A stretch of DNA of 64,000 nt from Klebsiella pneumoniae. GTDB lineage: Bacteria > Pseudomonadota > Gammaproteobacteria > Eutrophobiales > Eutrophobiaceae. Position numbers and translations under genes: made by a program. The notes beneath the pieces are model-generated. The model was not told where the DNA came from and did not search any database. It worked only from the letters and a program-made list of their open reading frames with translations. The stretch is taken from assembly GCA_945878555.1 (NCBI GenBank), contig CAMDWI010000010.1:6559-70558 (forward strand), in the 5' to 3' direction. Below, in pieces: positions 24,646 to 49,927 of the stretch (the stretch's first letter is position 1; each line of letters starts with the position of its first letter).

Positions 24646-25164
24646 CTAGAATATCGAGTAACCGTTCCAGACCTGGTAGACCAGACCCTTGTTCAGGGCG
24701 ATGCTGAATACCTGTTCAAACAGCAGATAGATTGCAACGGTAACACTGACCGAGATGGTAAGAGATAGCCCCAGTTTTTCCTCGGCAACCATATGCAGCA
24801 GCATGAACATGAATATCATCATGCCGGCGTAATGGCCAACCAGAAATATCAGAACCAGCAACAATATCATCCAGGCAAAAAAACCGGCCACTCCATTAAA
24901 CTCGGTATATTTGCCAGTGATCATTTTATTGAATGCGAGTGCGATATCAGCAAATCCTGCCGCCTTGAACGACTTTTTTATCTGTATCGCAATCATAATC
25001 AACATCGGCACCAGGATGACAATCGGCGTCCTGGCCGAGACGAAGTCATAAGTCAGTGCCGAAGCAAAGGCACCTGCCATTAATGCGCCGATAAACAGGA
25101 TGAAACACAGGTCCAGTGCGGCCATGTGCCTGTCGGCCTGACCTTCTTTATGGTTATTTTCCAT
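24646..25164 (-). CDS. tctB: Tripartite tricarboxylate transporter small membrane subunit (TctB-like)
   Basis: 172-aa protein with 4 predicted TM helices. Its start overlaps the stop of the upstream tctA by 11 nt. The family is poorly conserved, so I assign it by size, topology and position. Confidence 0.55.
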   Translation of the reverse strand: MENNHKEGQADRHMAALDLCFILFIGALMAGAFASALTYDFVSARTPIVILVPMLIMIAIQIKKSFKAAGFADIALAFNKMITGKYTEFNGVAGFFAWMILLLVLIFLVGHYAGMMIFMFMLLHMVAEEKLGLSLTISVSVTVAIYLLFEQVFSIALNKGLVYQVWNGYSIF

Positions 25165-26668
25165 TTGCTGCCTCTTTTTTCTCTTGTATCAGTTTCCAGA
25201 TATTCCAGGCCATGAACACGACAGTGAATATCGCCAGCGTCAGTGGTACCGGGTCAAAGATGAAGTACGGGCCGGACAGCTGGAGCGCCAGATACAGGTT
25301 CTTCTCGATGGCAAATCCGAGAACGAAACCTATCAGCAGTGCAGCGCGCGAGTAACCCAGTTCCTTCATCAGGTAACCCACGATACCAAACACAACTGCC
25401 ACACCGATATCAAACCAGGCATGGTTGATTGCATACGCACCGGTCACAATCGTACAGATCAGTACGGGGACGATGATCTTTGCGCGGATAGCGGAGACCC
25501 GGGTCAACGGATTAATCAGGAACATGCCTCCGGCCATACCAAACAATGCACCTATCCAGATGGTATGGATCATGACAAACACAAGGTCAACATGGTCTGT
25601 TACCATCTTCGGACCGGTTTCAACTCCCATGATAAAGAAGCCTGCCAGCAGGATAGCCATTGACGAGCTGCCTGGTATACCGAACGCGAGTGTTGAACCC
25701 AGCGCACCGCCCTCAACACCGTTGACCGAGGCCTCCGGCGCGATGACACCTTTAACATTACCCTTGCCAAAGGTGTCCTTGTCTTTCGATATCTGTTTGG
25801 CATGGGCATAGCCTATAAATGAGGCCGATGCGCTTCCAAGTCCCGGGATAAGACCGAGGACAACACCAATTGCACTGCTGCGCATGACGATATTCCAGTT
25901 TGCAAAAGCGGCCCTGACGCCCTGAAATATCTGTTTCTGGGTTTCCCTGGCACTTAACGGAGCGCGATCCACCTTGCCGACCAACGATCCGCTTTTTGAC
26001 CATAACTCAAACATTTCGGATATGGCGAACAGTCCCAGAATGACGGCCACCAGGTCAACGCCGTCATGCAAGGCCAAAAGACCAAATGTAAAACGTTCCT
26101 GGTTGGTGACGTTGTCCAGTCCAACCATCGCCAGTAACAGGCCGGCCATTGCGGCGATGATACTCTTGAACAGATCCCCTTCTCCCAGTACCGATACAAA
26201 CGAGAGTGCGAGGAGGACAAGTACGAATATTTCAGCTGGGCCAAACAACAAAACAATGTAACGTAGCGCAGGAAGCAGCAAGGCGATGACCACGCAACCA
26301 AACAGGGCACCCAGGAAGCAGGCCGTCATGGCTGCCCCGACGGCGATACCGGTTTCACCCCTTTCGCGCATCGGTGTACCGTCAAACAAGGTTGGCACGC
26401 TGGTTCCGGTGCCAGGTATGCCAAACAGGATCGCTGTCAGACCACCACCTTGTGCCACGGTAGAATGTGCTCCGATCAGGAAGGCAACGCCAGTGGCCGG
26501 TTCCATCGTGTACAGAAACGGTATCAACATGGCCATCGCAAAATGTCCGCTCAGTCCCGGAATAACGCCGACGATAAACCCGAATATCGCACCACCCATC
26601 ATGTACGGTAATACATCCAGACTTATTGCCTGGAAGAACCCGCTGATCATCCCCTCAACTATACCCAT
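25154..26668 (-). CDS. tctA: Tripartite tricarboxylate transporter permease (TctA family)
   Basis: 504 aa and polytopic. The N-terminal motif GAIFGFIVGVIPGLSGHFAMAMLIPF and the internal repeat ...GIPGSSSMAILLAGF are typical of TctA. Confidence 0.85.
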   Translation of the reverse strand: MGIVEGMISGFFQAISLDVLPYMMGGAIFGFIVGVIPGLSGHFAMAMLIPFLYTMEPATGVAFLIGAHSTVAQGGGLTAILFGIPGTGTSVPTLFDGTPMRERGETGIAVGAAMTACFLGALFGCVVIALLLPALRYIVLLFGPAEIFVLVLLALSFVSVLGEGDLFKSIIAAMAGLLLAMVGLDNVTNQERFTFGLLALHDGVDLVAVILGLFAISEMFELWSKSGSLVGKVDRAPLSARETQKQIFQGVRAAFANWNIVMRSSAIGVVLGLIPGLGSASASFIGYAHAKQISKDKDTFGKGNVKGVIAPEASVNGVEGGALGSTLAFGIPGSSSMAILLAGFFIMGVETGPKMVTDHVDLVFVMIHTIWIGALFGMAGGMFLINPLTRVSAIRAKIIVPVLICTIVTGAYAINHAWFDIGVAVVFGIVGYLMKELGYSRAALLIGFVLGFAIEKNLYLALQLSGPYFIFDPVPLTLAIFTVVFMAWNIWKLIQEKKEAANGK

Positions 26669-26769
26669 AGTGCAGTCCCTGTTTTAAGTATGTAACTGGA
26701 AGTGAAATCATCATAAGAATTAACTGAAAAATCTCCCCCGACGAAATTGAAATATGATTCTGATTAATC

Positions 26770-27837
26770 CTATAACTGGCCGTTAATCGCCTTCACGAAA
26801 AGATCCTTGATGTCCGGGGGCATGTTCGTGGCGTTATTGGTAATTTCATGGATCTCCGCACCCGAGGCGTAGTCAAACAGCCTGCCGGTACGCAGGCCCA
26901 GTGCAATCAATTCAGGGTCATGCATCGCCTTGTCAAAAGCGTCCCGCAGGAACGCCAGTCTGTTTTCCGGTGTACCGGGTGGTGCGGCAACTGATCGGCC
27001 AACTGCAATCAGTGCATCCCAGGCCTTGAGGATTTCACGAGTGCGCTGGGGATTGTCGGTAATATCTGCAAATTCAAAAACGGCCGGTACATCCGGAAGC
27101 GCATCCATTCGCTTGCTGCCACTCTGCAACATAACAATCTCGGCACCGCCATCAATACCTTCTTCTGCGCTACCGTATGACCCCCATGTACCTTTGATGT
27201 TACCGCGCAGCATTTCCTGGCGCACGACGGATGAACTGTCAAAACCATGAATGATCTCCACATTCATTTTAAATGCCTCTTTGGTGATCACGGCATCTAC
27301 ATAGGTACTGCCACCAAGTCCCGTCGCGCCAATCTTCACAGGGGCAGGACTCTTGACGATATCTGCAAATGTATTAAAGCCGGCCGCCTTCGACATGACC
27401 AATACGCGTGGGTCAGCGACGATGCGCCCGAGGTACGCGAACTTATCAAGCTCGTAATTGGCACCTTTGACGCCAGCCAATTCGCTGGTTACCAGCGCAC
27501 TGCCATTGATCATGCCGATAACCAGACCGTCATTCGGTGCTATGTAAAGTTCATTGACACCTTTCATGCCACCGGCACCGGGAAGGTTTTCTACATCAAC
27601 ACGCGCACCGGTGTATTTCCGCAGGTACGGTGACAGCAAACGGGCGTATTCATCATAACCACCACCCGGTGCATAAGGAATAATCCAGGTAATAATCTGT
27701 CCCTTGAAGAAGGCAGCCACATCCTCGTTTTCATCGTGGACTACACCCTGGTTTCTGATCGTACCAACCACGAGTAATACACCGATCACAGCAAAGATCG
27801 TGACGAGACTGATCGCAATTTTCTTGTTCATAGGCAA
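26770..27837 (-). CDS. tctC: Tripartite tricarboxylate transporter substrate-binding protein (TctC/Bug family)
   Basis: 355 aa with an N-terminal anchor/signal. The motif IIPYAPGGGYDEYARLL matches the conserved Bug/TctC N-lobe (PGGxxD). It is divergent from the amidohydrolase at 28069. Confidence 0.8.
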   Translation of the reverse strand: MPMNKKIAISLVTIFAVIGVLLVVGTIRNQGVVHDENEDVAAFFKGQIITWIIPYAPGGGYDEYARLLSPYLRKYTGARVDVENLPGAGGMKGVNELYIAPNDGLVIGMINGSALVTSELAGVKGANYELDKFAYLGRIVADPRVLVMSKAAGFNTFADIVKSPAPVKIGATGLGGSTYVDAVITKEAFKMNVEIIHGFDSSSVVRQEMLRGNIKGTWGSYGSAEEGIDGGAEIVMLQSGSKRMDALPDVPAVFEFADITDNPQRTREILKAWDALIAVGRSVAAPPGTPENRLAFLRDAFDKAMHDPELIALGLRTGRLFDYASGAEIHEITNNATNMPPDIKDLFVKAINGQL

Positions 27838-28068
27838 AACCCTGGATTATCGAAATATAATAATTATGAGAGTGGGACTTATTTTTGTCTGAATGATACA
27901 CATTAAAACAAACTCAAGCCAGCATATCACGGTAGCCAAATAGGGAAAAGTGAGGGAATCTGGTGAATAGGGTTTGCCGCTTACCGGGTGTGAGGACTAG
28001 AATAATTTCAGTAAAATTGTCCAGTATATATTCTGTAACATCGCATCGAATCAGAGGAGCAACAATAG

Positions 28069-29937
28069 ATGAAAATTTCGAGGGGGAGAGTCGCGACTTT
28101 AATGGCTACCGTTGCTTGTGTCGTGATGCCTGCAATAGCCGCCGCCCAGCCACAGCTGGTCATGAATTATGCTGACACCGTACTTTATAACGGCCAGATA
28201 ATTACGGCAGACGACGCCTTTTCCATCAAGGAGGCGATTGCCATACGCGATGGCAAGTTTCTCGCCGTAGGCAAAACCGACGAAATCATGCCGCTGGCAG
28301 GTCCTGAGACCCGCAAGATAGACCTGCAGGGGAAGTCGGTGACACCCGGTTTTATATATTCGGATGGAGATAATGCGGTTCCCGGTGGTGATCTGGTCAA
28401 GGATTCACAATGGAACGGCACGATCCAGGGGCAGATTGGTGGAGATACACTGGAACAGATTGAGCAGACCATCACCCACATTGCCGAGAATGAGGCGCTG
28501 CCTGGCGAGATCGTCTTTATCAAGACGGCAGATAACTGGGCCGGCAAGATACTGGAGACCTGGAACAAGGATACGCTGGACGAGTTATCCCCGAATAATC
28601 CCACCCTGCTTTTACCCGATTGTTGCTATGCAATAGCGAACAGCGCCCTGATTAAGTTGATGCTGGAAAAAGGATTCCCACCCGATCACCTGCATCTGAT
28701 GAAGGATGCTAACGGCAATATTACTGGTCAACTCGGGGCGAACGCCGTTGGTTTTGTCGGTCGCGAGCTACGCCCGTTTCCGCCACCGGAATGGATACAG
28801 GAGAATGGCGTCAAGGCAGCCAGGGAGATGATTAAGGAATACGCTGCTGAAGGAATTACGCTGGCGACTGGGCATATGACCGGACTGACAGTGCTGATCC
28901 TGAACCACCTTTTCAAGGACGGAACGCTGGCGATGCGTGTACACCCGGCACTCGATCTGATGCGTCAGAATGCCTTCCCGGAGCGGACGCTGGGCCGGGT
29001 GGGAAATCTGATGGACTTTGCCTTGTCTGATAAACGTGGGCCGATGGTACAGATTGTCGGTACAGCTGTGGGGCCACACACTGGCGCACCCGATGCCGCC
29101 ATCGGTCTGATGACGCTGGAGGCGAAGACCAACATCCTGCCGGAACTCGGCAAGAACGCACACGGTTATGACCGCTGGAGTGGTCAGTTCTTCAACGACA
29201 AGGGCACAATGCAACTGACCGACGAACAACGCAAGGACACCGAATACCATAACTTTATGCTCGCACGCCAGTACGGATATAACGTGAATGGTGTTCATAA
29301 TATGGGTAGCGGTGGCATCATGCTGTCAATGGAGCTGATCGTTGCGGCAGAAGCCCAGAAGCAGCTGTATGAACCAAATCTGTCGAGGGCACAGGCACTG
29401 GATCATAACATCGACTGGATGCCGGAGAATTTTGAATATTTCAAACAGCACAAGGAACTGCTGACAAAATATCTGCGGGTCGGTGTCAGCCTGAGTACCG
29501 CAATGAGACAACGCGATGCGAAGATGTTTGGTTATGAAGACGTCGTTTCCGCCCAGTATGGTTGGGACGGTCTGGAACGTATGGCACCGTTACGTTCGCT
29601 GTTGGAGGCCGGTATTCCGTTTCATATAGAAGGAACAGACCCGAAGAACAAGCCATTGTCCATTGTTAAGGACGCGGTCACGCGTATTGACCGCAAGGGC
29701 AGGGTTGTTGCCCCGCAAGAGGCATTGACGCGTGAGCAGGCTATCATGGCGATAACCCGTTGGGGTGCCAGGTTTATCAGTGCGGAACACCTGTTTGGCA
29801 CGATTGAGGCCGGGAAATATGCCGACCTCGTTGTATTTGATGGCGACGTGATGAAAGCGCCAATCGAGCAGATTGATCAGATCCGTCCGGTGTTGACACT
29901 GGTGGGTGGCGAGGTCGCCTTCGAAGCCAAACCGTAA
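28069..29937 (+). CDS. Secreted Amidohydro_3-like protein lacking the canonical N-terminal HxH metal motif
   Basis: 622 aa. RBS GAGGAG; signal peptide ending AIAAAQP. It is collinear with the other amidohydrolases and keeps the C-terminal GTIEAGKYADLVVFDGD signature. At the position of ...PGYIDTHNHI it reads ...PGFIYSDGDNA instead. Confidence 0.8.
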   Translation: MKISRGRVATLMATVACVVMPAIAAAQPQLVMNYADTVLYNGQIITADDAFSIKEAIAIRDGKFLAVGKTDEIMPLAGPETRKIDLQGKSVTPGFIYSDGDNAVPGGDLVKDSQWNGTIQGQIGGDTLEQIEQTITHIAENEALPGEIVFIKTADNWAGKILETWNKDTLDELSPNNPTLLLPDCCYAIANSALIKLMLEKGFPPDHLHLMKDANGNITGQLGANAVGFVGRELRPFPPPEWIQENGVKAAREMIKEYAAEGITLATGHMTGLTVLILNHLFKDGTLAMRVHPALDLMRQNAFPERTLGRVGNLMDFALSDKRGPMVQIVGTAVGPHTGAPDAAIGLMTLEAKTNILPELGKNAHGYDRWSGQFFNDKGTMQLTDEQRKDTEYHNFMLARQYGYNVNGVHNMGSGGIMLSMELIVAAEAQKQLYEPNLSRAQALDHNIDWMPENFEYFKQHKELLTKYLRVGVSLSTAMRQRDAKMFGYEDVVSAQYGWDGLERMAPLRSLLEAGIPFHIEGTDPKNKPLSIVKDAVTRIDRKGRVVAPQEALTREQAIMAITRWGARFISAEHLFGTIEAGKYADLVVFDGDVMKAPIEQIDQIRPVLTLVGGEVAFEAKP

Positions 29938-29956
29938 GGTTCAGAGAGGTCGAACA

Positions 29957-29992
29957 GGCCCTCACTTCCATGCGGGAGTGGGGGCTTTTTTA
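29957..29992. terminator. Terminator-like imperfect hairpin followed by a T-run, between convergent genes
   Basis: CCCTCACTTCC-atgcg-GGAGTGGGGG then CTTTTTTAT. It lies between the stop of 28069-29937 (+) and the stop of 29990-30370 (-). Confidence 0.45.
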
Positions 29993-30370
29993 TGTTGGTG
30001 ATTTCCTGAAAAACAGGCTGGCCAGGCCAAGACTGAACAGCATCAATACAGCCGTGAAAGGGGCCTTCATAGACTGTAACGGCAAAACTGGCTGTGTACC
30101 CGCAGCGCTGGTTATAGCAGGGGGCTCAAGACTTCCAGCAGAGGGACCACTGACTGCTTGTGCATTGGAGTCCGGTTTTGTTGTCGTATATTTACCAGTA
30201 ACCGGGTCGACATAGATCAGGTAGGCGGGTGTATCACGATCACTTGCAGCCGCCGGGCGTGGATAAATTGCGCCACACAATACCAGCAGCATCACCGACA
30301 GAAAAACAGCTGTCTGGACTACTCTGGACGAATGCTGTCCGTTATCAACAGACAGAAAGATCAAGCTCAT
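29990..30370 (-). CDS. Small secreted/anchored protein, amidohydrolase-associated family member B
   Basis: 126 aa. Its ATG overlaps the TGA of the upstream amidohydrolase (ATGA at 30367-30370). N-terminal signal/TM, then ...PAYLIYVDPVTGKYTTTKP, a Ser/Ala/Pro-rich linker, the C-terminal hydrophobic segment FTAVLMLFSLGLASLFF and a basic RK tail. Confidence 0.65.
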   Translation of the reverse strand: MSLIFLSVDNGQHSSRVVQTAVFLSVMLLVLCGAIYPRPAAASDRDTPAYLIYVDPVTGKYTTTKPDSNAQAVSGPSAGSLEPPAITSAAGTQPVLPLQSMKAPFTAVLMLFSLGLASLFFRKSPT

Positions 30371-32220
30371 TGCGCTGCCGATTCCCAGAGTTTGGCGTCA
30401 AATACCAGTTTACCCCCGATATAGGTCAGATCAATACCAAGCTTGTCGATGTCGGAATCCGCGACTGCTACAAAATCTCCATTGAGTACGCTGATATCAG
30501 CCCATTTCCCGGGTTCCAGCGAACCCAGTTCATCTTCTTCCCCGATAAATCGCGCAACATTGATCGTCAGCATCTTCAGCGCGGTCATCCGGTCTATCGC
30601 CTGATCGGCACCCCATACCTTGCCATTATGGTCGGTACGTGTCACAAACCGTTCTATCAGCCAGGTGGGATGGTTATGCGGATCGGTCCCTTCAATGTGC
30701 AAACTGTAGCCGCGAGCCAGCAGGTCCTTGACCGGCTGCATCGTGTGCATTTTTTCGCCATATTGAGATTCCAGCAACGGGCGACCGTTGACCGACATGC
30801 GCTGGTCGAAGATCTCCGGGCTGAGCGCCATGGCGACATTGTCCCGGTATTTGTCGATCAGGGGATAGTTCGACTCATGCCAGACCAGATTGTGATCAAA
30901 GGCATTCGGCTTGCGTGCCTTGAAATACGGCTTCACACTGGTATTGAAATTGTCGATGGCGAGCAGGTTGGTCCGCAGGGCCGCGCTACCCATGTTGTGG
31001 TTCCCGCTCATATTCCAGCCGTATTTCAACAGCAGGCTGACAGTATTGTAGTCGGTCTGGGCCTTCAGGTCGTCCGTCATATCGTCCCAGGTCAGGCCGG
31101 TCCAGACCTCGCCGGTCCATTTGTTCAGCCCACGTGGTGTACCACCAATCTCCGGGTCGACCTTCTCCTTGTCATCGATGGTCAGCATGCCGAACTGGCT
31201 GTTGGAACCGTCATCGACCGGGCCGGTGGCAGCACCCACGATCTTCACCATCGGGCCGCGTACCGCGTCTGTCAGCGCAAAATTGACCAGATTGCCGACC
31301 CGTTTCAGATACTGTTCTGCGAACGGATTCTGGCGAATGAAGTCATGTCCCGGATACACACGGATATCGAGCTTGCCATCATGAAACAGCGAGTTCAGCA
31401 GACTGGTGGTCAATCCACTCATATGACCGGTTATTGTCGTCACACCCACGGAGAGATAGCCGCGCAGTACAGCAACGGTTTCTTCGTGTGCCTTTTCGAT
31501 ATATTCCGGGCTGGGCCAGGGCCTGACCTGCCAACCGATAAATCCGGCAGCCTGCTGGAACAGCTGTCCTGTCGGTTTGCCGTCGGCGTCCTTGACGACA
31601 CCGAACATATTCGGGTCCAGACCGGATTCCATAGCACGCTCCATCATGGCACTGTTTACGACTGCGACGGAGTCATTATAAAACAGCGCAATCGGATGGT
31701 CCGGGGATACCTCATCGAGGTCATTTGCGGTCCATTCCTCCGCCTGCCGTGGTGAGGCCTTGGGCATGTTAATGAATACCGGTTCTTCGGGTCGTGCCTT
31801 CGCTATCACCTCGCCGATAGAGTTCAGTAACTCGTCCATTTTTGCGCCGGTGATACGTTCTGTCGAGAGGGCACCGTCCACCTGGGTCATCTTGTAGATA
31901 TCACCCGCCGGTACGGCGCTGTCGCCGTCGTTATAGATAAAACCTGGCGTAACGGTCCTGCCCGAGAGGTCGACCTTTTGCGTCTGTGGACCGGCCAGTT
32001 CGAGTATCTCGATTGTCTTGCCTGTAGCAAGCACACGACCGTCACGTACGGCAATGGCTTCGGTAATCGTATTGTTTTGATCCAGTGTCAGCACCTTGCC
32101 GTTGAACATGATCAGTTCAGGATATTTGATCAGGATTTGGGGCTGGGCATGGCCAACAGTGTTATACAAGAAAAACAGCAATATTGTAGTAATTGATAAC
32201 TTTACTGATGGTATATGCAT
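30367..32220 (-). CDS. Secreted Amidohydro_3-like protein lacking the canonical N-terminal HxH metal motif (paralog of 28069-29937)
   Basis: 617 aa with a signal peptide (..YNTVGHAQP). It reads ...PGFIYNDGDSAVPAG in place of HxH. The C-terminal signature GSLEPGKWADISVLNGD is present. It is about 50% identical to 28069-29937. Confidence 0.8.
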   Translation of the reverse strand: MHIPSVKLSITTILLFFLYNTVGHAQPQILIKYPELIMFNGKVLTLDQNNTITEAIAVRDGRVLATGKTIEILELAGPQTQKVDLSGRTVTPGFIYNDGDSAVPAGDIYKMTQVDGALSTERITGAKMDELLNSIGEVIAKARPEEPVFINMPKASPRQAEEWTANDLDEVSPDHPIALFYNDSVAVVNSAMMERAMESGLDPNMFGVVKDADGKPTGQLFQQAAGFIGWQVRPWPSPEYIEKAHEETVAVLRGYLSVGVTTITGHMSGLTTSLLNSLFHDGKLDIRVYPGHDFIRQNPFAEQYLKRVGNLVNFALTDAVRGPMVKIVGAATGPVDDGSNSQFGMLTIDDKEKVDPEIGGTPRGLNKWTGEVWTGLTWDDMTDDLKAQTDYNTVSLLLKYGWNMSGNHNMGSAALRTNLLAIDNFNTSVKPYFKARKPNAFDHNLVWHESNYPLIDKYRDNVAMALSPEIFDQRMSVNGRPLLESQYGEKMHTMQPVKDLLARGYSLHIEGTDPHNHPTWLIERFVTRTDHNGKVWGADQAIDRMTALKMLTINVARFIGEEDELGSLEPGKWADISVLNGDFVAVADSDIDKLGIDLTYIGGKLVFDAKLWESAAQ

Positions 32221-32528
32221 GACTGCGCCCCCCGGTTGTCAGGCTACTCAGATATGAAAGTTTGAAGGGCAGGTCTCGCCCCGCCACGAGACGATTGTAT
32301 GCCCTTGATAACTCGAGAACAGTAAGCATCATAATTTGACATGCCAGTCAGAGGCAAGGCCGCAATTTACGATAAATTTACGCAGGATTTGCTGGCGATT
32401 TGCTATAGTTGACACTGCATATCATGTTTAATAGTATCGTTGAACTGATCAGCCTGATTTATATCAAAAGTAATGAACTTATATCGTCCATTAAGCAATG
32501 TGTCCTGACGGGGGAACGAGTGTATAAA

Positions 32529-33476
32529 ATGAATTTCAAGAAGCTGTTTGCCAGCATCATTTTACTGGCGGTCTCAACATCCCCGACTTTTGCGGCCTTT
32601 CCGGAAAAGGATATCAAGGTCATTATCGGTGTCAGCCCGGGTGGCGGTTTTGACACCTATATGCGCGCACTTATACCGATACTCGAAAAGTATCTGGGTA
32701 ATGATGTAAATGTGCTGCCAATTAATTCGCCGGGTAGTGGTGGCAGGCGCGGCGCCCTTGAAACATTCAAGGCCAAACCGGACGGTTATACCATCGGCAT
32801 GTTTAATATGCCGGGTGTATTGATCCCGCAGTTAACGGAAAAAGATGTGGGCTATGATCTGGAAAAGATTACCTGGCTGGCCACTCTGGGTAACGACCCG
32901 TATGCATTTATCGTCAACAAGAACAGTGATCTGAAAAGTTTTGAGCAGGTTCTGGCACAAAAGTCGCCCATACTGTTTGGCGCGACCGGCCCATCATCAA
33001 CCTCCTATGTTGCCACGATAATAATGAATGAAACACTGGGTATCCCATACGAAGTGGTGACCGGGTACACCGGTAGCAGTGAATATGCGATGGGTGTGAT
33101 GCGGGGAGATGTGGTTGCCGCATTACTCAGCATGTCCACCGCGCGTGGTTATATCAAGTCTGGTGACGTGAGGGCACTGGCGATGATTGGTATGAAGAGC
33201 ACGGGTCCGGGGATTGCGGATGCCGACAGTCTGGGCAAGCCTGATCTCGGCAAACTGAATGTAGTCCGTATGATAGGCGCGCCTCCCGGTTTGCCGGCAG
33301 ACATCCGGGCTATCTATGAAAAGGCCTTTATGTCAGCGATGGCGGATCCTGAGTTTACCAAGTGGCTGGAGGCTACCGGAAATGATGCATCGCCTGCCGG
33401 TGGGGAGGCAACATCTGCGACCGTGAGTGGACTGGTCGAGTTCTACAATAAATATATAAATGTGTTGAAAAAGTAA
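32529..33476 (+). CDS. tctC: Tripartite tricarboxylate transporter substrate-binding protein (TctC/Bug family), second copy
   Basis: ORF 32409..33476. I prefer the ATG at 32529, which gives the signal peptide MNFKKLFASIILLAVSTSPTFAAF. The motif VIIGVSPGGGFDTYMRALIP is present. Confidence 0.8.
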   Translation: MNFKKLFASIILLAVSTSPTFAAFPEKDIKVIIGVSPGGGFDTYMRALIPILEKYLGNDVNVLPINSPGSGGRRGALETFKAKPDGYTIGMFNMPGVLIPQLTEKDVGYDLEKITWLATLGNDPYAFIVNKNSDLKSFEQVLAQKSPILFGATGPSSTSYVATIIMNETLGIPYEVVTGYTGSSEYAMGVMRGDVVAALLSMSTARGYIKSGDVRALAMIGMKSTGPGIADADSLGKPDLGKLNVVRMIGAPPGLPADIRAIYEKAFMSAMADPEFTKWLEATGNDASPAGGEATSATVSGLVEFYNKYINVLKK

Positions 33477-33565
33477 ACCAGGTTCACGCGGTCACCCTAC
33501 AGTTGTGCCTCGACACAATTTGTCACTCCGCATTTCTATAAACCCGGACACACGGAAACAAACTG

Positions 33566-35059
33566 ATGCTAGAAGTATTGCTTGGCGCAACTGCTGATAT
33601 TTTCACGCTGAGAACCCTGTTATTCCTGCAACTCGGAGTGTTTGCAGGGTTGATCGTCGGTGTTATACCCGGGCTCGGCGGAACAACGGCACTCGCTATC
33701 CTGATGCCTCTCACATTCGGGATGGAACCTATCGATGCATTTGCCATGGCGGGTGGCATCATGGGATCTGTAGGCGCGGGTGGGGCTATCACGGCGATCC
33801 TGATTAATGCGCCTGGTACTGCACCGAATGCGGCGACCTGCCTTGATGGTTATCCGATGGCCCGTCAGGGACGGGCCGCAGAGGCGCTTGGTGCCACATC
33901 TACTGCCTCACCGCTCGGCGGCCTGTTTGGCATGGTGACCTTGTTAATGGTGTTGCCATTTGCCAAGGAGCTGGTGCTGATGTTCAGACCGCCGGAGTTT
34001 TTCCTGCTGGCTGTGTTTGGACTGATATCAATAGCACTGTCTGACACCCGGAATATGATCAGGGGGTTGGTCACTTCCTGTGTGGGGCTGATGCTGGCCT
34101 TTGTTGGCTACGACTCTGTCAGTGGTGGTGACAGGTTCACGCTCGGCTCTGACTACCTGTGGGACGGTATTCCGCTGGTCCCGTCGTTGATAGGCCTGTT
34201 TGCGATGACCGAGATGATACGTCTGACCATATCCGGTGGCAGTGTGGCGGCAGATGCAGACTCTGTCCAGTTGGATGGGATCATGAAGGGTGTGTGGGCA
34301 ACATTTCGGCACTGGAAAGTTGTGTTACGCGGCTCGATCATCGGCACGATAGTAGGCGCAGTACCCGGTGCCGGCGGGACAGTTGCGACTTTCATCTCCT
34401 ATTCTTCGACGAAAAACTCGGACCCGCACCCGGAGACGTTTGGTACGGGACGTATTGAGGGCGTAATCGCGCCGGAGGCCGCAAATAATGCCAAGGACAG
34501 CGGTGCGCTGTTACCAACACTGGCCTTTGGTATCCCGGGCAGTTCAGAAATGGCGGTATTTCTGGGAATTCTGGTTTTACACGGTATGCAGCCGGGACCG
34601 ACGATGCTGCTGGAGCATGAACGCGAGATTTATGGACTGATTATAGCGTTGACCCTGAGTGCTGTCCTGTCTGCTGTGCTGGCGCTGGTACTGATACGCT
34701 GGCTGGCACTGATAACATTGGTTAAAGGCCAGATCCTGGCACCGATAGTGATTATTACCAGTCTGGTCGGTGCCTATGCTATTGATTCGCGGCCGGGTGA
34801 TGTGATGGTTGCAGCGGGCATGGGTGTTATTGGTTATCTGATGGTGCGCTTCCATTATCCACGCCTGCCTCTGGTGATAGCACTGGTACTCGGAGAGACC
34901 GCCGAGCGTGGCTTTATGCAGTCGATGATGATAGGCCGGGGTAGCTGGGGCATTTTTGTCTCCTCGCCTGTCTCCATCATTATGGTGTTATTGATCGTAA
35001 TAAGCTTGTTGTGGTGGTTGGTACCTGTGACCCGGAACTGGCTGCGAGGGGAGAAATAA
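33566..35059 (+). CDS. tctA: Tripartite tricarboxylate transporter permease (TctA family), second copy
   Basis: 497 aa and polytopic, with GLIVGVIPGLGGTTALAILMPLTFGM and GIPGSSEMAVFLGIL repeats; it is homologous to 25154-26668. Confidence 0.85.
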   Translation: MLEVLLGATADIFTLRTLLFLQLGVFAGLIVGVIPGLGGTTALAILMPLTFGMEPIDAFAMAGGIMGSVGAGGAITAILINAPGTAPNAATCLDGYPMARQGRAAEALGATSTASPLGGLFGMVTLLMVLPFAKELVLMFRPPEFFLLAVFGLISIALSDTRNMIRGLVTSCVGLMLAFVGYDSVSGGDRFTLGSDYLWDGIPLVPSLIGLFAMTEMIRLTISGGSVAADADSVQLDGIMKGVWATFRHWKVVLRGSIIGTIVGAVPGAGGTVATFISYSSTKNSDPHPETFGTGRIEGVIAPEAANNAKDSGALLPTLAFGIPGSSEMAVFLGILVLHGMQPGPTMLLEHEREIYGLIIALTLSAVLSAVLALVLIRWLALITLVKGQILAPIVIITSLVGAYAIDSRPGDVMVAAGMGVIGYLMVRFHYPRLPLVIALVLGETAERGFMQSMMIGRGSWGIFVSSPVSIIMVLLIVISLLWWLVPVTRNWLRGEK

Positions 35060-35060
35060 T

Positions 35061-35522
35061 ATGAGTACACAACGTACAGGCAGGTTTATTAATATGCTGC
35101 CTTCATTATTGCTCGCCGCATTTGTGCTCGCCTATCTGGTCACCGGATACCAGACACTGGAGGCAGAGTCGCGTCAGGTGCCAATTATGACTGCCTGGAT
35201 TACCCTTTTCTTGCTGGCGCTGGATTTGTTTACCAGTTGGAAGGGTGGGAATGAGGAGAACCATAAGAAGACTGAGGTAGACCTTCCCCTGTTTATCGAG
35301 CTCCGGGCACCGCTGTCTCTGTTGGCGCTCATCGTAATGATCTACTTTGTCGGGTTCTATATTGGTGGCAGCATCTATCTGGTGCTCGCCTTGTGCTGGT
35401 TGGGTGATCAGAAGCTGCGGTTTTCTATCATTACAACAGTAATTACATTTTTGTCCATCTATCTGTTGTTTGAGAAGGGCTTGTCGTTTCAGCTGTTTCG
35501 GGGCGTCCTGTTAGCCAGTTGA
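35061..35522 (+). CDS. tctB: TctB-like small membrane subunit, second copy
   Basis: 153 aa with 4 TM helices. It starts 2 nt after the tctA stop (TAATATG). Confidence 0.55.
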   Translation: MSTQRTGRFINMLPSLLLAAFVLAYLVTGYQTLEAESRQVPIMTAWITLFLLALDLFTSWKGGNEENHKKTEVDLPLFIELRAPLSLLALIVMIYFVGFYIGGSIYLVLALCWLGDQKLRFSIITTVITFLSIYLLFEKGLSFQLFRGVLLAS

Positions 35523-37069: not shown

Positions 37070-37289
37070 GACAAAACCTCCAGAGTATGAATTTTACGTG
37101 CAAATTTACAGCATCAGTCTAGATAAGTTTGGAGGAGCCGACAACCATCCGGACAAAGAAACAGGGATACAGATCAGATAAACAGGATTTCAGTAGAAGT
37201 AATGAATGAGGCAGGATTTAAATGCAGTGGGTATCTGCAAAAATGGCTCTCGCTGGCAATCAGACGATTGCCAGCGAGAGGTAACAGTG

Positions 37290-39905
37290 CTAGTTGTAGT
37301 TATATCTCAGCTGGATTCCGTAAGTCCGGAAAGAGTTCGAACTGATGGTTTCGTAAAGTATCGGATCCGGTAACAAATCAAATTCCGGGTAGTATTTGAT
37401 TCTTGGTTCGAGCAGGTTACGTCCGTATATGGACAGTTCCCAGGTATCATCCAGGTCAGCGATGCCCAGGCTGAGGTTCAGGTCGGAATGGGTCGGCATG
37501 CGGACAATCTGATCGAAGCTTTCGATATTGGTTACATAGCCGTCTGAATACTTGAACCGCCCGTTAAAGGTCATCTTGTAGCTGTCCAGGATCGGCCACC
37601 AGTAATCTGCGCCGATGGTGAACACCCATTCTGGCAGGCGTGGCAGTCTCTCTCCGGTACGGTCGATGGTATTTTCCAGGTCGTCATTTCCAACCAACGC
37701 AATCGACTCAGCAGCGCTGATACAAGGCCCACTATCGGCATTCACGGATTCAAAGGTGGTACAGCCCGCGTTGCTAAAGCTTCGCATCTTTCCGTCATAG
37801 ATGGCACCGTTAAAGCTCAGTGTCAGGCGGTCGGTAGCGGCAGCTAACAGGTCTGCCTCAAGGCCCTGTACCCGCAATTTGCCAGCGTTGACAGTCTGAC
37901 TGGCTACACCTGTATTGGTGACTACAGCGAGAGGCAGGGTAGTACCGATTTGCAGATTGTCGACGGTGGTACTGGAGGCCGAGACACCACCACGGGCGCG
38001 GCCGTCCCAGAAGGTTCCGCGTGCGCCAACCTCATACATGGTTGTCTTTTCCGGACCGAATACAAAGTTTTCCGGTTGCGGTGTACTCTTCAGTTCGACC
38101 TCGAACCCACCAGCCTTAAATGCTTCGGCATATTTGGCATACAGCGAAACATCTTCCATCGGGCGATAACGCAGTACAACCTGGGGATCGAAGAAGGTGC
38201 CGTCGTTCGTCGCGTCATTACGTGCGACACCGTCGGCTGGTGCATTGCGTTCCGGTGTCATCCCGATCGGGGTAGCGCCGACAAACCGTGAGTAGTTCGG
38301 GGTGGCAGTCAGACTGCGGAAGCGGTTATGAGTGGTCTCATTCGGTATGACAAATGGAGTTCCCGGTGCAAGTGGGTCGTCAAAGATCCACTCCTGAACG
38401 AACTGGATCTGTCCGCCGTGTTTTTTAACATCGGAGTAACGACCACCCAGGTCCAGTGACATCTTGTCATCAAAGAAGTTGAACGTTAGTGCCGCGAAGC
38501 CGCTGAGCCACTCTGCATCCTCGAATCCGACCGGATTACGTGCGGGCCTACGTACATTCGAACGCAGACCGATGGTCTTCAGGTCGAGGTCGTTGTTGTG
38601 ATAGTAGGCACCAATCATCCATTCGATCATGCCCCCGGTCGGCGAGCTGAGCTTCACTTCCTGACTCCACTGATCCAGAAATTCGGAACGGAAGGTGTAG
38701 TTCGACAGGAAGTATTGACCGCTGTTGTCTTCAGAGTTTTTGCGGACATAGCGGCTATAACCGGTTGTGGAACTCAGTTCTATATCGTTTGCGAAGGTGT
38801 ATCTCAAGTCGAGATAGCTGTCCCACGGGCTCAAATCGTCATGGGCCTCGATACTATCCGGACCCTGTGAACCCCAGGGCGAAGTGCGCATGTAGTCGGG
38901 AAGGAATCCGGACAGGTCGATGCTGGTCCTGTCTGAAGAGTTCAGGAAGACGAGCCCGTCGACTGCCGGATTCAGATATTCGAGAGACGGACGGATACCC
39001 CATTCGCCGAATTCTGCCGGTATCGGCTGGAAGTTTGCATTACTTAGCCCCGTTATTAACGTATGTCTTGCATAGCGTTCGGTTGGGATAGGATTCATAT
39101 CAGAGCCGATGCTGCGCGCGACCGCATTACCCTCTCCCTGGGTCTGCTTGTTGGCCATCTGGAATTTGGCAGTAGCCTGAAAATTTTCCGCTGGTGTCCA
39201 TTGAAGTATCGCCCGTCCCATGAATACCTGATATTTCGGGAAGGTATCGCCGGTAAGGATGTCTTTCATATAACCTGAGGATCGATCATATTTTCCGGCC
39301 ACGCGTATTCCCAGGGTATCGCTGATAGGGCCACCGACACCAAACTCAACAGCATTCTTGTCCTGGTTACCTGCTTCAGCACGTAGATTGCCTTCCCATG
39401 TAGAGGTAGGCTTACGCGTAGTAATACTGAATGCGCCGGCATTCGCGTTCTGTCCGAAATAGATCGGTTGGGGGCCGCGCAGGATTTCCACCCGCTCAGC
39501 GTCCAGAAATGCAGCCAGTATTTGTCCTGACCTTCCAAAGTGGATGCCATCAACAAAGGTAGGTGCAGACTGTTCCAGGGCCTGGTTGTTTCCAGCAGTA
39601 CCCACGCCGCGAATTGTGATATTAATTCTGTCTTGTCCCGCATCAATCGTGGCGCCAGGTGAAAACTGGGTAAGGTCTACCATGTCCCGGAAACCCTGTT
39701 TATCAATTTCAGCGCCGGTGAATGCCTCGATGGATATTGGCACTTCCTGAAGTGATTGTTCACGACGCTGGGCCGTTACGACAATTTCTTCCAGTGCCTG
39801 AGCCTGAACCTGAACCGATGGCACCGAGATAATTGCGCAGATGGCAGCGCCAATAATGGAACAGAATCTTGAACTGGATGGCTTTAGAAGCTTAGCCATA
39901 GACAT
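37290..39905 (-). CDS. TonB-dependent outer-membrane receptor (paralog of 14727-17450)
   Basis: 871 aa with a signal peptide. The plug-domain N-terminus is ALEEIVVTAQRREQSLQEVPISIEAFTG and the C-terminus ends ...RYNYN. Confidence 0.9.
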   Translation of the reverse strand: MSMAKLLKPSSSRFCSIIGAAICAIISVPSVQVQAQALEEIVVTAQRREQSLQEVPISIEAFTGAEIDKQGFRDMVDLTQFSPGATIDAGQDRINITIRGVGTAGNNQALEQSAPTFVDGIHFGRSGQILAAFLDAERVEILRGPQPIYFGQNANAGAFSITTRKPTSTWEGNLRAEAGNQDKNAVEFGVGGPISDTLGIRVAGKYDRSSGYMKDILTGDTFPKYQVFMGRAILQWTPAENFQATAKFQMANKQTQGEGNAVARSIGSDMNPIPTERYARHTLITGLSNANFQPIPAEFGEWGIRPSLEYLNPAVDGLVFLNSSDRTSIDLSGFLPDYMRTSPWGSQGPDSIEAHDDLSPWDSYLDLRYTFANDIELSSTTGYSRYVRKNSEDNSGQYFLSNYTFRSEFLDQWSQEVKLSSPTGGMIEWMIGAYYHNNDLDLKTIGLRSNVRRPARNPVGFEDAEWLSGFAALTFNFFDDKMSLDLGGRYSDVKKHGGQIQFVQEWIFDDPLAPGTPFVIPNETTHNRFRSLTATPNYSRFVGATPIGMTPERNAPADGVARNDATNDGTFFDPQVVLRYRPMEDVSLYAKYAEAFKAGGFEVELKSTPQPENFVFGPEKTTMYEVGARGTFWDGRARGGVSASSTTVDNLQIGTTLPLAVVTNTGVASQTVNAGKLRVQGLEADLLAAATDRLTLSFNGAIYDGKMRSFSNAGCTTFESVNADSGPCISAAESIALVGNDDLENTIDRTGERLPRLPEWVFTIGADYWWPILDSYKMTFNGRFKYSDGYVTNIESFDQIVRMPTHSDLNLSLGIADLDDTWELSIYGRNLLEPRIKYYPEFDLLPDPILYETISSNSFRTYGIQLRYNYN

Positions 39906-40087
39906 ACCCCCTTTTGATTTGTTAAATAGGCAACAGTGTTGTTAGTACAACATAAATTACAATAATACAACTGTCAATGCGAATACAAAAGCCCCCCGGA
40001 GGTAAATTCCCCCGTTATTCCTTATTAACTCAAGGAATCTGGATAACGTATTAGCACTACGGGGGAGCTTGTGTCGTTCAGTGGCGT

Positions 40088-41590: not shown

Positions 41591-41674
41591 AGGGATGGTG
41601 GTTATTCGCTGGTGGTAGTTGGAAAAATCCCGGGGACGTATCAGGAGACTGTCCCCGGGACATGCATAGACAAA

Positions 41675-42895: not shown

Positions 42896-43161
42896 GAATT
42901 ACTCCATTTGAAGGTGACAAATTTAAACAGGGTTGGATGATACCTAGTAAGTGAGTTTATTTCCAGTTTACAGCGAAATCCGTTCAATCTTTCATTCAGC
43001 TCCTGATAAAAAAAGGCCTGACGCTACAGCCGGGTAAAAAAAGATGGTTACGACTTTATCACCTGGTCAGAGTGGAATCCTGGATTAATAATCCGGACAC
43101 CCAATCCGGAGACAACAAGCCTGATCCGTGCGAAATTCTTGCACAATGTTGATCTTAGTAA

Positions 43162-43189
43162 TTTATTGACACTCTTATTTTTTTATACT
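43162..43189 (+). promoter_or_regulatory. Possible promoter upstream of the small-protein/amidohydrolase pair (weak)
   Basis: An AT-rich block holds TTGACA (43166-43171) and TATACT (43184-43189), but the spacing is suboptimal (12 nt). Pairing the -10 with TTTATT at 43162 instead gives 16 nt. It sits ~80 nt upstream of 43270. Confidence 0.25.
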
Positions 43190-43269
43190 AGGTTAGCCCG
43201 CTGATAACGGGTTGATATTGTTGTCTGGTATAACCTGTATTTGCAGCGGTATTGAGGGGAACGAGAGTT

Positions 43270-43644
43270 ATGGGCAGGGTCATGTTTATGTTACAGATAA
43301 CAGTATTGTTGATACTGCTGTCTGGCGCCGCCAGTGCATCGGATGGTGATGTCGATTACTCCTCGCCTTACATCACTGTTGACCCCAAGACGGGTCAATT
43401 GATCACAGTAAACCCCGGGCCACGTCTAAAGACTCATTCAGCCGAGGACATGCCGGGGATGTCACAGATGGAGACGGAACAATCACCAGCCCAAACCAGT
43501 CCGGTTGCAAGTCAGCCTGTTGCAGACCAACCGGCAACAGCGACAGACCCTAAACAATCCGGCTTTATCGCCATTGTTGTGGTTGGACTGCTGGTTTTCG
43601 CAACTATGGCATACCGGCGATTAAGGCACCGTCAGCCGGGCTAA
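43270..43644 (+). CDS. Small secreted/anchored protein, amidohydrolase-associated family member C
   Basis: ORF 43252 (TTG)..43644. I prefer the ATG at 43270, which has GAGGGGA 9 nt upstream. Signal peptide MGRVMFMLQITVLLILLSGAASA, then ...SSPYITVDPKTGQLITVNP, a Pro/Gln/Ser/Thr/Ala-rich linker, the hydrophobic segment FIAIVVVGLLVFATMAY and an RRLRHRQPG tail. Confidence 0.65.
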   Translation: MGRVMFMLQITVLLILLSGAASASDGDVDYSSPYITVDPKTGQLITVNPGPRLKTHSAEDMPGMSQMETEQSPAQTSPVASQPVADQPATATDPKQSGFIAIVVVGLLVFATMAYRRLRHRQPG

Positions 43645-43717
43645 CCGAAACAGCCATTTTTTCCTGTACACAAGCAGAATTATTATTTCAGTTTAATTAT
43701 CAGGGGGTAGTCAGATT

Positions 43718-47289: not shown

Positions 47290-47291
47290 CC

Positions 47292-49918: not shown

Positions 49919-49927
49919 CAGGGCAGT

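What the first reader, a model, noticed from the sequence alone, without database searches (positions are those of the whole stretch)
28069..32220. Two amidohydrolase paralogs have replaced the canonical HxH metal-binding motif with S/N-D-G-D
Three paralogs keep the textbook amidohydrolase motif after the conserved TPG-[FY]-I block (GYIDTHNHI twice; IIETHVHPE once). At the same position 28069-29937 reads PGFIYSDGDNAVPGG and 30367-32220 reads PGFIYNDGDSAVPAG, so both lack histidines. Both keep the rest of the fold, including the C-terminal ...G(K)xADxxV(L/F)(N/D)GD signature. They may be pseudo-enzymes such as binding proteins, or they may use a non-canonical carboxylate-rich metal site. These are the two paralogs that flank small protein B.
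Basis: partly seen in the sequence, partly recalled or inferred. Interest (0 to 1): 0.7.

Follow-up and report, generated by a model that had tools for sequence, protein, structure and literature searches.

The report
Amidohydrolases with Asp-x-Asp replacing His-x-His
Two exported enzymes of the amidohydrolase family carry two aspartates where the textbook pair of metal-binding histidines should be; the swap is conserved across a distinct clade of marine and sediment bacteria, so they are probably working enzymes with a rebuilt active site rather than dead copies.

Summary
A (28069-29937, +) reads PGFIYSDGDNAVPGG and B (30367-32220, -) reads PGFIYNDGDSAVPAG. Profile alignments to solved structures (AtzA, 3ICJ, 3IGH) put D-G-D exactly in register with H-x-H.

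This is not decay. 116 of 118 A-type and 118 of 118 B-type homologs, down to about 50% identity, keep both Asp. The Asp-x-Asp proteins form one clade (50/50 bootstraps) inside His-x-His relatives, and account for only 8 of the best 150 cluster representatives.

- **Kept:** the strand-5 His, the strand-6 His, a strand-2 His, a strand-3 Asp and a strand-8 Glu.
- **Not kept:** the canonical strand-4 Lys column is Ala/Ser, and the canonical strand-8 Asp is not conserved.
- **New in the clade:** a strand-8 His and a GD..K loop.

Both proteins have signal peptides. Each is transcribed divergently from its own TctCAB carboxylate transporter. B is translationally coupled to a small membrane-tethered protein from an undescribed family.

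My best reading is an active periplasmic hydrolase with an intact beta-metal site and a remodelled alpha site (0.4). A carboxylate-rich two-metal site is the main rival (0.3), and a pseudo-enzyme is unlikely (0.12). I could not read the model coordinates, so the site geometry is inferred. I rate this a new variant of a known kind.

The parts
28069..29937 (+). Paralog A: 622-aa exported YtcJ-like amidohydrolase (Pfam Amidohydro_3) of the 'A-type' Asp-x-Asp subfamily
28363..28371 (+). Codons for D99-G100-D101, which replace the strand-1 His-x-His
   Evidence: register confirmed; conserved in 117 and 118 of 118 homologs.
30367..32220 (-). Paralog B: 617-aa exported YtcJ-like amidohydrolase of the 'B-type' Asp-x-Asp subfamily, 38% identical to A
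   Evidence: Pfam PF07969 E=1.6e-31. BLASTP A vs B 38% identity. AF2 model pLDDT 93.3. B-type invariants include K154, H292, K326, D336, D337 and H517.
31921..31929 (-). Codons for D98-G99-D100 of B, which replace His-x-His
   Evidence: conserved in 118 of 118 B-type homologs.
29990..30370 (-). Small protein (126 aa). It has a signal peptide, a conserved mature N-terminus SDRDTPAYLIYVDPVTGKY, a Pro/Ser/Thr-rich linker, and a C-terminal transmembrane helix followed by basic residues. Its start overlaps B's stop (ATGA).
   Evidence: overlap. Homologs lie beside Asp-x-Asp amidohydrolases in 11 pairs (10 downstream, 1 upstream) on 9 contigs, and in 3 of 3 blind look-ups. The family has at least 252 members with no Pfam or NCBIfam match. 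117 of 120 have a C-terminal TM segment followed by K/R.
26770..27837 (-). TctC-type periplasmic binding protein, transcribed divergently from A
   Evidence: Pfam PF03401 E=5.8e-12.
25154..26668 (-). TctA large permease of the first tripartite tricarboxylate transporter
   Evidence: Pfam PF01970 E=5.7e-116.
24646..25164 (-). TctB small permease subunit (weak match)
   Evidence: Pfam PF07331 E=4.9e-4, below the curated cutoff; supported by its position after TctA.
32409..33476 (+). Second TctC-type binding protein, transcribed divergently from B
   Evidence: Pfam PF03401 E=4.7e-20; 31% identical to the first TctC.
33566..35059 (+). Second TctA permease
   Evidence: Pfam PF01970 E=1.4e-130; 37% identical to the first TctA.
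35061..35522 (+). Second TctB subunit
   Evidence: Pfam PF07331 E=3e-10.
37290..39905 (-). TonB-dependent outer-membrane receptor near the module; a possible import step (context only)
   Evidence: Pfam Plug plus TonB_dep_Rec_b-barrel. A TonB-dependent receptor directly precedes a B-type/A-type pair in L007.

Best explanation
A and B are most likely active, Sec-exported periplasmic hydrolases of the YtcJ-like (Amidohydro_3) branch of the amidohydrolase superfamily. I propose that they keep one catalytic metal in the beta site. That site would be held by the strand-5 His (H410 in A, H408 in B), the strand-6 His (H446/H443), and a third ligand from strand 2 (H269/H266) and/or strand 3 (D296/D293). 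The strand-1 His-x-His, which builds the alpha site in textbook members, was replaced once by Asp-x-Asp at the base of this clade. In the best-understood beta-mononuclear relatives the strand-1 pair is not a metal ligand. In D-aminoacylase and OngB it sits next to the catalytic strand-8 Asp and helps proton transfer, and in E. coli NagA it is Gln-x-Asn. Here the canonical strand-8 Asp is no longer conserved. I therefore propose that D99/D101, helped by the clade-specific H519, invariant E521 and the D108/K111 loop, took over the carboxylate (general base/acid or substrate-binding) role. Each enzyme is encoded back to back with its own TctCAB carboxylate importer, and TonB-dependent receptors lie nearby. 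The likely job is to cleave an imported amide or ester in the periplasm and release a carboxylate for uptake. A and B would act on different substrates or on successive steps. Shown: the motif, its register, its conservation, the single origin of the clade, the fold, and the gene neighbourhood. Inferred: metal content, which residues are ligands, catalytic activity, and substrate.
For: Register of D-G-D with H-x-H. Conservation: 116 of 118 A-type and 118 of 118 B-type homologs. H410 and H446 are invariant in all 61 subfamily sequences, HxH members included, and align to 3ICJ 'VHAIGD' and 'IEHA'. H269, D296, H519 and E521 are invariant in both subfamilies. In both AF2 models (pLDDT 93) these residues lie at or just after the C-terminal ends of predicted strands: 95-98, 263-270, 290-295, 406-410, 442-447 and 518-520. 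The canonical Lys column is Ala/Ser/Thr across the whole subfamily, and the canonical Asp column is Thr with a variable neighbour. The clade is monophyletic in 50 of 50 bootstraps, sister to HxH proteins. Precedents: NagA with QXN binds one metal, and an HXH-to-QXN mutant stays active while AXA is dead (PMC6016474). In OngB and D-aminoacylase, Zn is bound by Cys/His/His only, and the HxH histidines lie 3.4-3.8 A from the catalytic Asp and are essential (PMC12017989). Context: the divergent TctCAB operons are 31-37% identical to each other, matching the 38% between A and B. The same TctCAB linkage appears in L001 and L089.
Against: I could not read the model coordinates, so no distances support the ligand assignments. 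Strand numbering rests on DSSP strings and on sequence alignment to 3ICJ. B-type proteins have an invariant Lys (K326) at the end of strand 4, which could be carbamylated and bridge two metals; that fits the rival better. Four His plus several carboxylates are enough for a two-metal site. Position 328 varies (Q/T/S/K/R) across the clade, so A-type and B-type may not share one mechanism. TctCAB linkage is seen only in the closer relatives (about 70% identity or more). Distant A-type homologs sit beside a Peptidase_M24 gene and an NMT1-like binding protein instead. No activity or substrate is known for any member.
Confidence: 0.4

Rival explanations
1. Carboxylate-rich two-metal site. D99 and D101 are true ligands of an alpha-site metal. 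H519 (strand 8) and H269 (strand 2) come from the two strands that flank strand 1 and replace the lost histidines. In B-type proteins K326, perhaps carbamylated, bridges to the beta metal. The harder ligand set would favour Mn, Fe, Mg or Ca over Zn.
For: Four invariant His (H269, H410, H446, H519) plus D99, D101, D296 and E521 equal or exceed the ligand count of a canonical binuclear site. H519 is specific to the clade: 7 of 8 representatives have it and no HxH relative does. K326 is invariant in 118 of 118 B-type proteins and is the last residue of predicted strand 322-326. Renal dipeptidase already uses His-x-Asp on strand 1 (my own knowledge, Seibert and Raushel 2005).
Against: A-type proteins have Q/T/S at the K326 position, and no member has Lys at the canonical column. 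H269 also occurs in many HxH relatives, so it is not a compensating change. No geometry is available. No amidohydrolase with Asp-x-Asp ligands turned up in the literature searches.
Confidence: 0.3
2. Non-catalytic binding proteins (pseudo-enzymes). The barrel pocket binds a ligand or the N-terminal hairpin of the small tethered protein. It would act as a periplasmic receptor or scaffold for the neighbouring transporter rather than as a hydrolase.
Against: Each TctCAB operon already encodes its own TctC binding protein. The strand-5 and strand-6 histidines and about ten further polar residues are invariant, which is more than simple binding usually requires. HxH paralogs in the same window (D and E) also have small tethered partners, so the partner is not tied to loss of catalysis.
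Confidence: 0.12
3. Metal-independent catalysis. The two Asp form an acid/base pair and the histidines only position substrate or water, as in metal-independent members of the superfamily.
For: A metal-independent subset of amidohydrolases is recognised (PMC12017989). Two carboxylates three residues apart at a barrel strand end could act as acid and base. The canonical Lys and Asp are lost.
Against: The pair of strand-5 and strand-6 histidines that form the beta-metal site is strictly retained, together with a third potential ligand. Nothing positive points to metal independence.
Confidence: 0.08

Closest known systems
YtcJ-like metal-dependent amidohydrolases (Pfam Amidohydro_3 PF07969, COG1574, cd01300), e.g. 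PDB 3ICJ and 3IGH from Pyrococcus
   Different: 3ICJ has HxH, the GVKLF Lys and the STDSP Asp. A and B have DxD, Ala at the Lys column, and Thr at the Asp column. A and B are exported and about 130 residues longer. Sequence identity is only 15-18%.
[quoted passage not shown]
   Same: This is an active amidohydrolase in which the strand-1 HxH is naturally replaced (by QXN). It keeps a single metal on a strand-3 carboxylate plus the strand-5 and strand-6 histidines (PMC6016474). A and B keep an invariant strand-3 Asp and the same two histidines.
   Different: NagA belongs to another family (Amidohydro_1, about 380 aa, cytoplasmic, dimeric). Its replacement residues are neutral Gln and Asn, not two Asp. 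NagA keeps the catalytic strand-8 Asp.
D-aminoacylases and the OngB deacetylase (subtype V, Amidohydro_3-type fold)
   Same: The enzymes are beta-mononuclear. The third ligand comes from strand 2, and the strand-1 pair does not bind the catalytic metal but assists catalysis (PMC12017989). H269 in A sits at a comparable strand-2 position. The substrates are N-acyl amino acids or amino-sugar acids that yield carboxylates, which fits the TctCAB context.
   Different: These enzymes keep HxH and the strand-8 Asp, use Cys rather than His on strand 2, and are cytoplasmic. Sequence relatedness to A and B is only local.
Renal dipeptidase (His-x-Asp on strand 1)
   Same: It is a precedent for a carboxylate ligand in the strand-1 motif of a binuclear amidohydrolase (my own knowledge, Seibert and Raushel 2005, not checked here).
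   Different: Only one of the two positions is Asp. It is a different family and has a different overall ligand set.

Membership tests
Amidohydrolase superfamily / Pfam Amidohydro_3 (YtcJ-like) | (beta/alpha)8 barrel with a composite beta-sandwich domain | tested here: met
Amidohydrolase superfamily / Pfam Amidohydro_3 (YtcJ-like) | His-x-His at the C-terminal end of strand 1 | tested here: not met
   Asp-Gly-Asp lies in exact register, and there is no His nearby.
Amidohydrolase superfamily / Pfam Amidohydro_3 (YtcJ-like) | Carbamylated Lys on strand 4 that bridges the two metals | tested here: not met
   The 3ICJ 'GVKLF' Lys aligns to A333 in A and to Ala in B; the column is Ser/Ala/Thr in the whole subfamily. 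B-type proteins have an invariant K326 five residues upstream whose role is unknown.
Amidohydrolase superfamily / Pfam Amidohydro_3 (YtcJ-like) | His at the end of strand 5 and His at the end of strand 6 | tested here: met
   H410/H446 in A and H408/H443 in B are invariant in every alignment and align to the 3ICJ His residues.
Amidohydrolase superfamily / Pfam Amidohydro_3 (YtcJ-like) | Catalytic or ligand Asp after strand 8 | tested here: inconclusive
   The 3ICJ 'STDSP' Asp aligns to T523. The next residue is D in A and B, but E/D/G across A-type and D/S/G/N across B-type proteins. E521 and H519, two and four residues earlier, are invariant.
Amidohydrolase superfamily / Pfam Amidohydro_3 (YtcJ-like) | Bound divalent metal and hydrolytic activity | not testable with these tools
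   This needs purified protein.
Beta-mononuclear amidohydrolases (NagA E. coli type or D-aminoacylase type) | A third beta-site ligand from strand 2 or strand 3, in addition to the two histidines | tested here: inconclusive
   H269 (strand 263-270) and D296 (just after strand 290-295) are invariant in both subfamilies.
Inactive amidohydrolase-fold proteins (CRMP, DHOase-like domains) | Loss of the active-site residues without conserved polar replacements | tested here: not met
   The replacements are themselves invariant: D99, D101, D108, K111 and H519.

The most novel reading that the evidence does not exclude
The Asp-x-Asp proteins are a new metal-site subtype of the amidohydrolase superfamily. 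The ligand or catalytic set would have moved from strand 1 and strand 8 (HxH, Asp) to Asp-x-Asp plus a new strand-8 His. They would work as part of an undescribed periplasmic module in which a small, membrane-tethered hairpin protein docks the soluble hydrolase at the inner membrane, next to its dedicated TctCAB importer.
Probability: 0.25. Interest if true: 0.7.

Novelty: new variant of a known kind. Interest (0 to 1): 0.5.

Why it matters
The amidohydrolase superfamily is a standard example of how one barrel fold supports many metal-site variants. About nine subtypes are recognised, all defined by which strand-end residues hold the metal.

A conserved clade with Asp-x-Asp on strand 1, no canonical Lys and no fixed strand-8 Asp would add a variant. 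It would also give a natural experiment on how a metal or catalytic site is rebuilt from neighbouring strands.

In practice, automatic annotation calls these proteins 'amidohydrolase YtcJ', and no NCBIfam model reaches its cutoff. The clade recurs in sediment Gammaproteobacteria such as Woeseiaceae, beside TonB receptors and carboxylate importers. It may therefore mark an uncharacterised route for using amide-linked organic matter.

The paired small tethered protein family (at least 252 members, no annotation) is a second, separate lead.

Tried and rejected
- **Genome scan.** Scanning genome contigs with the single protein returned only one close relative, L001.
- **Metagenome scan.** The tool chose generic C-terminal patterns, so it returned mostly unrelated HxH amidohydrolases. 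Only L009 was of the Asp-x-Asp type, and I did not use the scan further.
- **Structure library.** afdb50 was not installed.
- **Fusion model.** I tried to model B fused to its small protein through a Gly-Ser linker, to test docking.
- **Model coordinates.** They are not exposed, so I could not measure active-site distances. All ligand assignments rest on alignment and on DSSP strand ends.
- **Contaminated profile.** My first small-protein HMM included seven amidohydrolase sequences and gave false hits. I rebuilt it from sequences under 200 aa.
- **Literature searches.** None found a description of Asp-x-Asp amidohydrolases, of amidohydrolase-TctCAB modules, or of the small protein.
- **Family scans.** NCBIfam scans of A, B and the neighbours and Pfam scans gave no substrate clue.
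- **Rejected idea: H207-x-H209 as a relocated HxH.** This pair is invariant in A-type proteins, but B-type proteins have M-F-G there, so it cannot explain the clade.
- **Rejected idea: H269 as a compensating change.** Many HxH relatives also carry it.
- **Rejected idea: fusion proteins.** No natural fusion of enzyme and small protein was found among the longer homologs; their extra length is N-terminal.
Full report
**Observation**

A reads ...TPGFIYSDGDNAVPGG... and B reads ...TPGFIYNDGDSAVPAG.... The D-G-D codons are at 28363-28371 in A and 31921-31929 in B.

- Both proteins match Pfam Amidohydro_3 well above the cutoff, with E=1.8e-30 and 1.6e-31.
- No NCBIfam model reaches its cutoff for either.
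- A and B are 38% identical over their full length.
- The three other paralogs in the window carry HxH. These are C (492-2483), D (2713-4764) and E (43718-45934).

**Register of the motif**

HMMER aligns the family profile 'PGfiysdgd' to atrazine chlorohydrolase 'PGFINAHTH'.

A broader profile of 61 subfamily members aligns end to end with the YtcJ-like structures 3ICJ (E=2e-55) and 3IGH. A MAFFT alignment that includes the 3ICJ sequence gave the following mapping.

| Canonical element (3ICJ) | Residue in A | Residue in B |
|---|---|---|
| Two His of 'DSHLH' (strand 1) | D99, D101 | D98, D100 |
| His of 'VHAIGD' (strand 5) | H410 | H408 |
| His of 'IEHA' (strand 6) | H446 | H443 |
| Lys of 'GVKLF' (strand 4) | A333 | Ala |
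| Asp of 'STDSP' (strand 8) | T523 (D524 follows) | Thr (D513 follows) |

Neither protein has a histidine within about 15 residues before or 25 after the motif. The motif is therefore replaced, not shifted.

**Is it degeneration or a conserved feature?**

A search of 5.8 billion proteins with A returned 116 full-length homologs down to 49% identity.

- 117 of the 118 aligned sequences keep D99 and all 118 keep D101.
- D108 and K111 are kept in 118 of 118.
- H269, H410, D445, H446, H519 and E521 are also invariant or nearly so.

The same search with B gave 117 homologs down to 55% identity.

- All 118 aligned sequences keep D98, D100, D107 and K110.
- They also keep H266, D293, K326, H408, H443, H508 and E510.

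The two subfamilies differ at other invariant positions.

- **A-type:** D155, H207, H209, H337 and D342, with Q/T/S at position 328.
- **B-type:** K154, H292, K326, D336, D337 and H517.

This pattern indicates two distinct specificities under purifying selection, not decay.

**How rare is it, and did it arise once?**

A profile search of 1.84 billion cluster representatives found 1,391 relatives at E<=1e-30. Among the best 150:

- Only eight carry the Asp-type strand-1 motif or a degenerate form of it (P0121-P0128).
- The remaining full-length representatives carry HxH or a near variant that keeps the first His.

In a neighbour-joining tree rooted on 3ICJ, the ten Asp-type sequences form one clade in 50 of 50 bootstrap replicates. 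The clade is sister to a group of HxH proteins.

Compared with that sister group, the clade gained H519, D108/K111 and N447. It changed E296 to D296 and R269 to H269. H269 also occurs in many other HxH relatives, so it is not a compensating change. H519 is specific to the clade.

**Fold**

AlphaFold2 models of A and B are confident, with mean pLDDT 93.0 and 93.3 and pTM 0.89 and 0.90.

The best solved matches are the uncharacterised YtcJ-like hydrolases:

- 3ICJ and 3IGH by Foldseek, E about 1e-24.

In the DSSP strings the conserved polar residues sit at or just after the ends of predicted strands.

| Predicted strand in A | Conserved residue(s) |
|---|---|
| 95-98 | D99, D101 |
| 263-270 | H269 |
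| 290-295 | D296 |
| 324-328 | Q328 (K326 in B) |
| 406-410 | H410 |
| 442-447 | H446 |
| 518-520 | H519, E521 |

That is where amidohydrolase active sites lie (established knowledge). The tools do not expose coordinates, so I could measure no distances. All statements about ligands are inference.

**What this means for mechanism**

The superfamily is classified by its metal ligands into about nine subtypes. [quoted passage not shown] Two precedents matter here.

[quoted passage not shown] An HXH-to-QXN mutant of a mycobacterial NagA stays active, whereas AXA is dead (PMC6016474).
- **D-aminoacylase and OngB.** Zn is held by Cys, His and His. The HxH histidines do not bind it. They lie 3.4-3.8 A from the catalytic Asp and are essential (PMC12017989).

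The whole ~600-aa subfamily, HxH members included, lacks Lys at the canonical bridging column. A beta-type site may therefore be its ancestral state.

My preferred reading (0.4) has three parts.

- The beta site is intact, built from H410, H446 and either H269 or D296.
- D99 and D101 took over a carboxylate role, as general base/acid or in substrate binding.
- They did so as the strand-8 Asp lost conservation.

In B-type proteins, K326 could bridge the two metals. A non-catalytic binding protein (0.12) and a metal-independent enzyme (0.08) are less likely.

**Location and neighbourhood**

Both proteins begin with a hydrophobic segment ending in AAA|QP (A) or GHA|QP (B). I read these as Sec signal peptides (direct reading). 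They are modelled as low-confidence N-terminal helices.

The local map is a mirror image:

- TctB-TctA-TctC (24646-27837, minus strand), transcribed divergently from A.
- The small ORF and B on the minus strand.
- TctC-TctA-TctB (32409-35522, plus strand), transcribed divergently from B.

The two transporters are 31-37% identical to each other. That matches the 38% between A and B, so an old duplication of a whole enzyme-plus-importer unit is likely.

The arrangement recurs elsewhere.

- It is syntenic in a related MAG, L001, at 85% identity.
- TctCAB linkage recurs in L089.
- TonB-dependent receptors lie nearby at 37290-39905 and 14727-17450. One directly precedes a B-type/A-type pair in L007.

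A-type and B-type genes often share a contig. Sixteen contig lengths are common to the two hit lists.

More distant A-type homologs (about 50% identity) sit beside a Peptidase_M24 gene and an NMT1-like binding protein instead. The transporter partner is therefore not fixed across the clade.

From this I infer a periplasmic step that releases a carboxylate for uptake. The substrate is unknown.

**The small protein**

ORF 29990-30370 (-) starts at an ATGA overlap with B's stop codon. It encodes the following elements:

- a signal peptide;
- a conserved mature N-terminus, SDRDTPAYLIYVDPVTGKY;
- a Pro/Ser/Thr-rich linker;
- a C-terminal transmembrane helix followed by basic residues.

Similar genes lie beside Asp-x-Asp amidohydrolases in 11 pairs on 9 contigs: ten directly downstream (4-bp overlap to 36-bp gap; one 22-bp overlap reflects the longest-ORF start in L001) and one 40 bp upstream (L089). 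One motif type accompanies B-type enzymes ('IYVDPxTGKY'). Another accompanies A-type enzymes ('VDYSAPYVTLEDGELVTKYP').

A profile search found at least 252 members, none annotated and none with a Pfam domain. Of 120 examined, 117 have the C-terminal TM-plus-basic design.

Three members were chosen because their contigs had not appeared in earlier hit lists. Each lies 8-13 bp downstream of a 630-655-aa Asp-x-Asp amidohydrolase.

The window holds two more members:

- about 43270-43641 (+), just upstream of HxH paralog E;
- 4857-5309 (+), just downstream of HxH paralog D.

The partner therefore belongs to the wider exported subfamily, not only to the Asp-x-Asp clade. A has no adjacent partner of its own. 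A tether or accessory-subunit role is my guess.

**Comparison with known families**

These proteins are members of the amidohydrolase superfamily and of the YtcJ-like/Amidohydro_3 branch by fold and sequence. They fail three of the six textbook ligand features.

| Feature | Result in A and B |
|---|---|
| HxH on strand 1 | Not met |
| Lys on strand 4 | Not met |
| Asp on strand 8 | Inconclusive |
| Two histidines of the beta site | Met |

They resemble E. coli NagA and the D-aminoacylases in how they may work, but they belong to neither family.

The literature searches found no description of an Asp-x-Asp amidohydrolase. The held library lacks most subscription journals, so this absence is only weak evidence.

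**Verdict**

I rate this a new variant of a known kind, with interest 0.5. The point of interest is a conserved, single-origin remodelling of a textbook active site in an environmentally recurrent clade. The finding is limited by the lack of any biochemical or geometric evidence.

Noticed in passing
window 29990-30370 (-), 43270-43641 (+), 4857-5309 (+); also L002 11954-12208, L003 9926-10246, L005 9984-10319, L089 884-1321 and 9869-10171, L092 6001-6303, L093 782-1078 and 6001-6318, L094 6001-6381: An unannotated family of small exported proteins (about 85-175 aa) lies directly beside exported Amidohydro_3 genes. Each has an acidic, hairpin-like conserved N-terminus, a low-complexity linker and a C-terminal membrane anchor. 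The motif subtype tracks the enzyme subtype. At least 252 members exist, with no Pfam or NCBIfam match.
   Followed up: partly
window 24646-35522: There is a mirror-image arrangement: TctBAC and A are divergent on one side, and B and TctCAB are divergent on the other. All paralog pairs are 31-38% identical, which suggests an old inverted duplication of a whole enzyme-plus-transporter unit.
   Followed up: partly
window 35573-45934; L090 1-6546; L091 1-6278: A conserved gene block recurs in other genomes next to a B-type enzyme: a 730-738-aa HxH amidohydrolase (paralog E), a ~405-aa cupin, an EutA-like ATPase (500 aa) and a ~495-aa protein with no family match. The window also has a TonB-dependent receptor inserted in this block. 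EutA homologs normally reactivate B12 enzymes, yet no such enzyme is nearby.
   Followed up: no
window 28685-28693 (A residues H207-L-H209): A-type proteins have an invariant His-x-His in the insertion domain (117 of 118 at each His), together with invariant H337 and D342. B-type proteins lack all of these. These residues may line the A-type substrate pocket.
   Followed up: partly
window 5503-6615 (+): A HupE/UreJ_2 plus DUF6702 membrane protein lies just downstream of paralogs C and D and their small partner. HupE/UreJ proteins are linked to Ni/Co uptake for urease and hydrogenase, so this could hint at the metal these amidohydrolases use.
   Followed up: no
window 492-2483 and 2713-4764 (+): Paralogs C and D are a tandem duplicate. 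They share a nearly identical ~45-aa C-terminal extension (…RGNTFRFNTADASWTIDMKTPTSIWRWTEVPKIPPFLNGANGY) that A, B and E lack.
   Followed up: no
window 8078-13027 and 46270-51953 (+): There are two separate MoxR-type AAA ATPase / DUF58 / von Willebrand A (BatA-like) gene clusters, one on each side of the amidohydrolase region.
   Followed up: no
window 56154-61833 (+): Planctomycete-style DUF1592/1588/1585/1587/1595 and DUF1552 proteins are followed by a 606-aa ankyrin-repeat protein. This is an unusual set for a gammaproteobacterial contig.
   Followed up: no
window 30229-31755 (+) and 29970-30215 (+): A 508-aa ORF lies antisense to B, and an 81-aa ORF lies antisense to the small protein. 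Neither has homologs or family support, and both are probably shadow ORFs rather than genes.
   Followed up: partly
L002 12212-14725, L003 12534-14964, L092 6307-8854, L093 6320-8727: In distant A-type loci the enzyme plus small-protein pair is followed on the opposite strand by a Creatinase_N/Peptidase_M24 gene and by an NMT1-like binding protein. This is a recurrent alternative context that may point to a peptide-like or amidino-type substrate.
   Followed up: no
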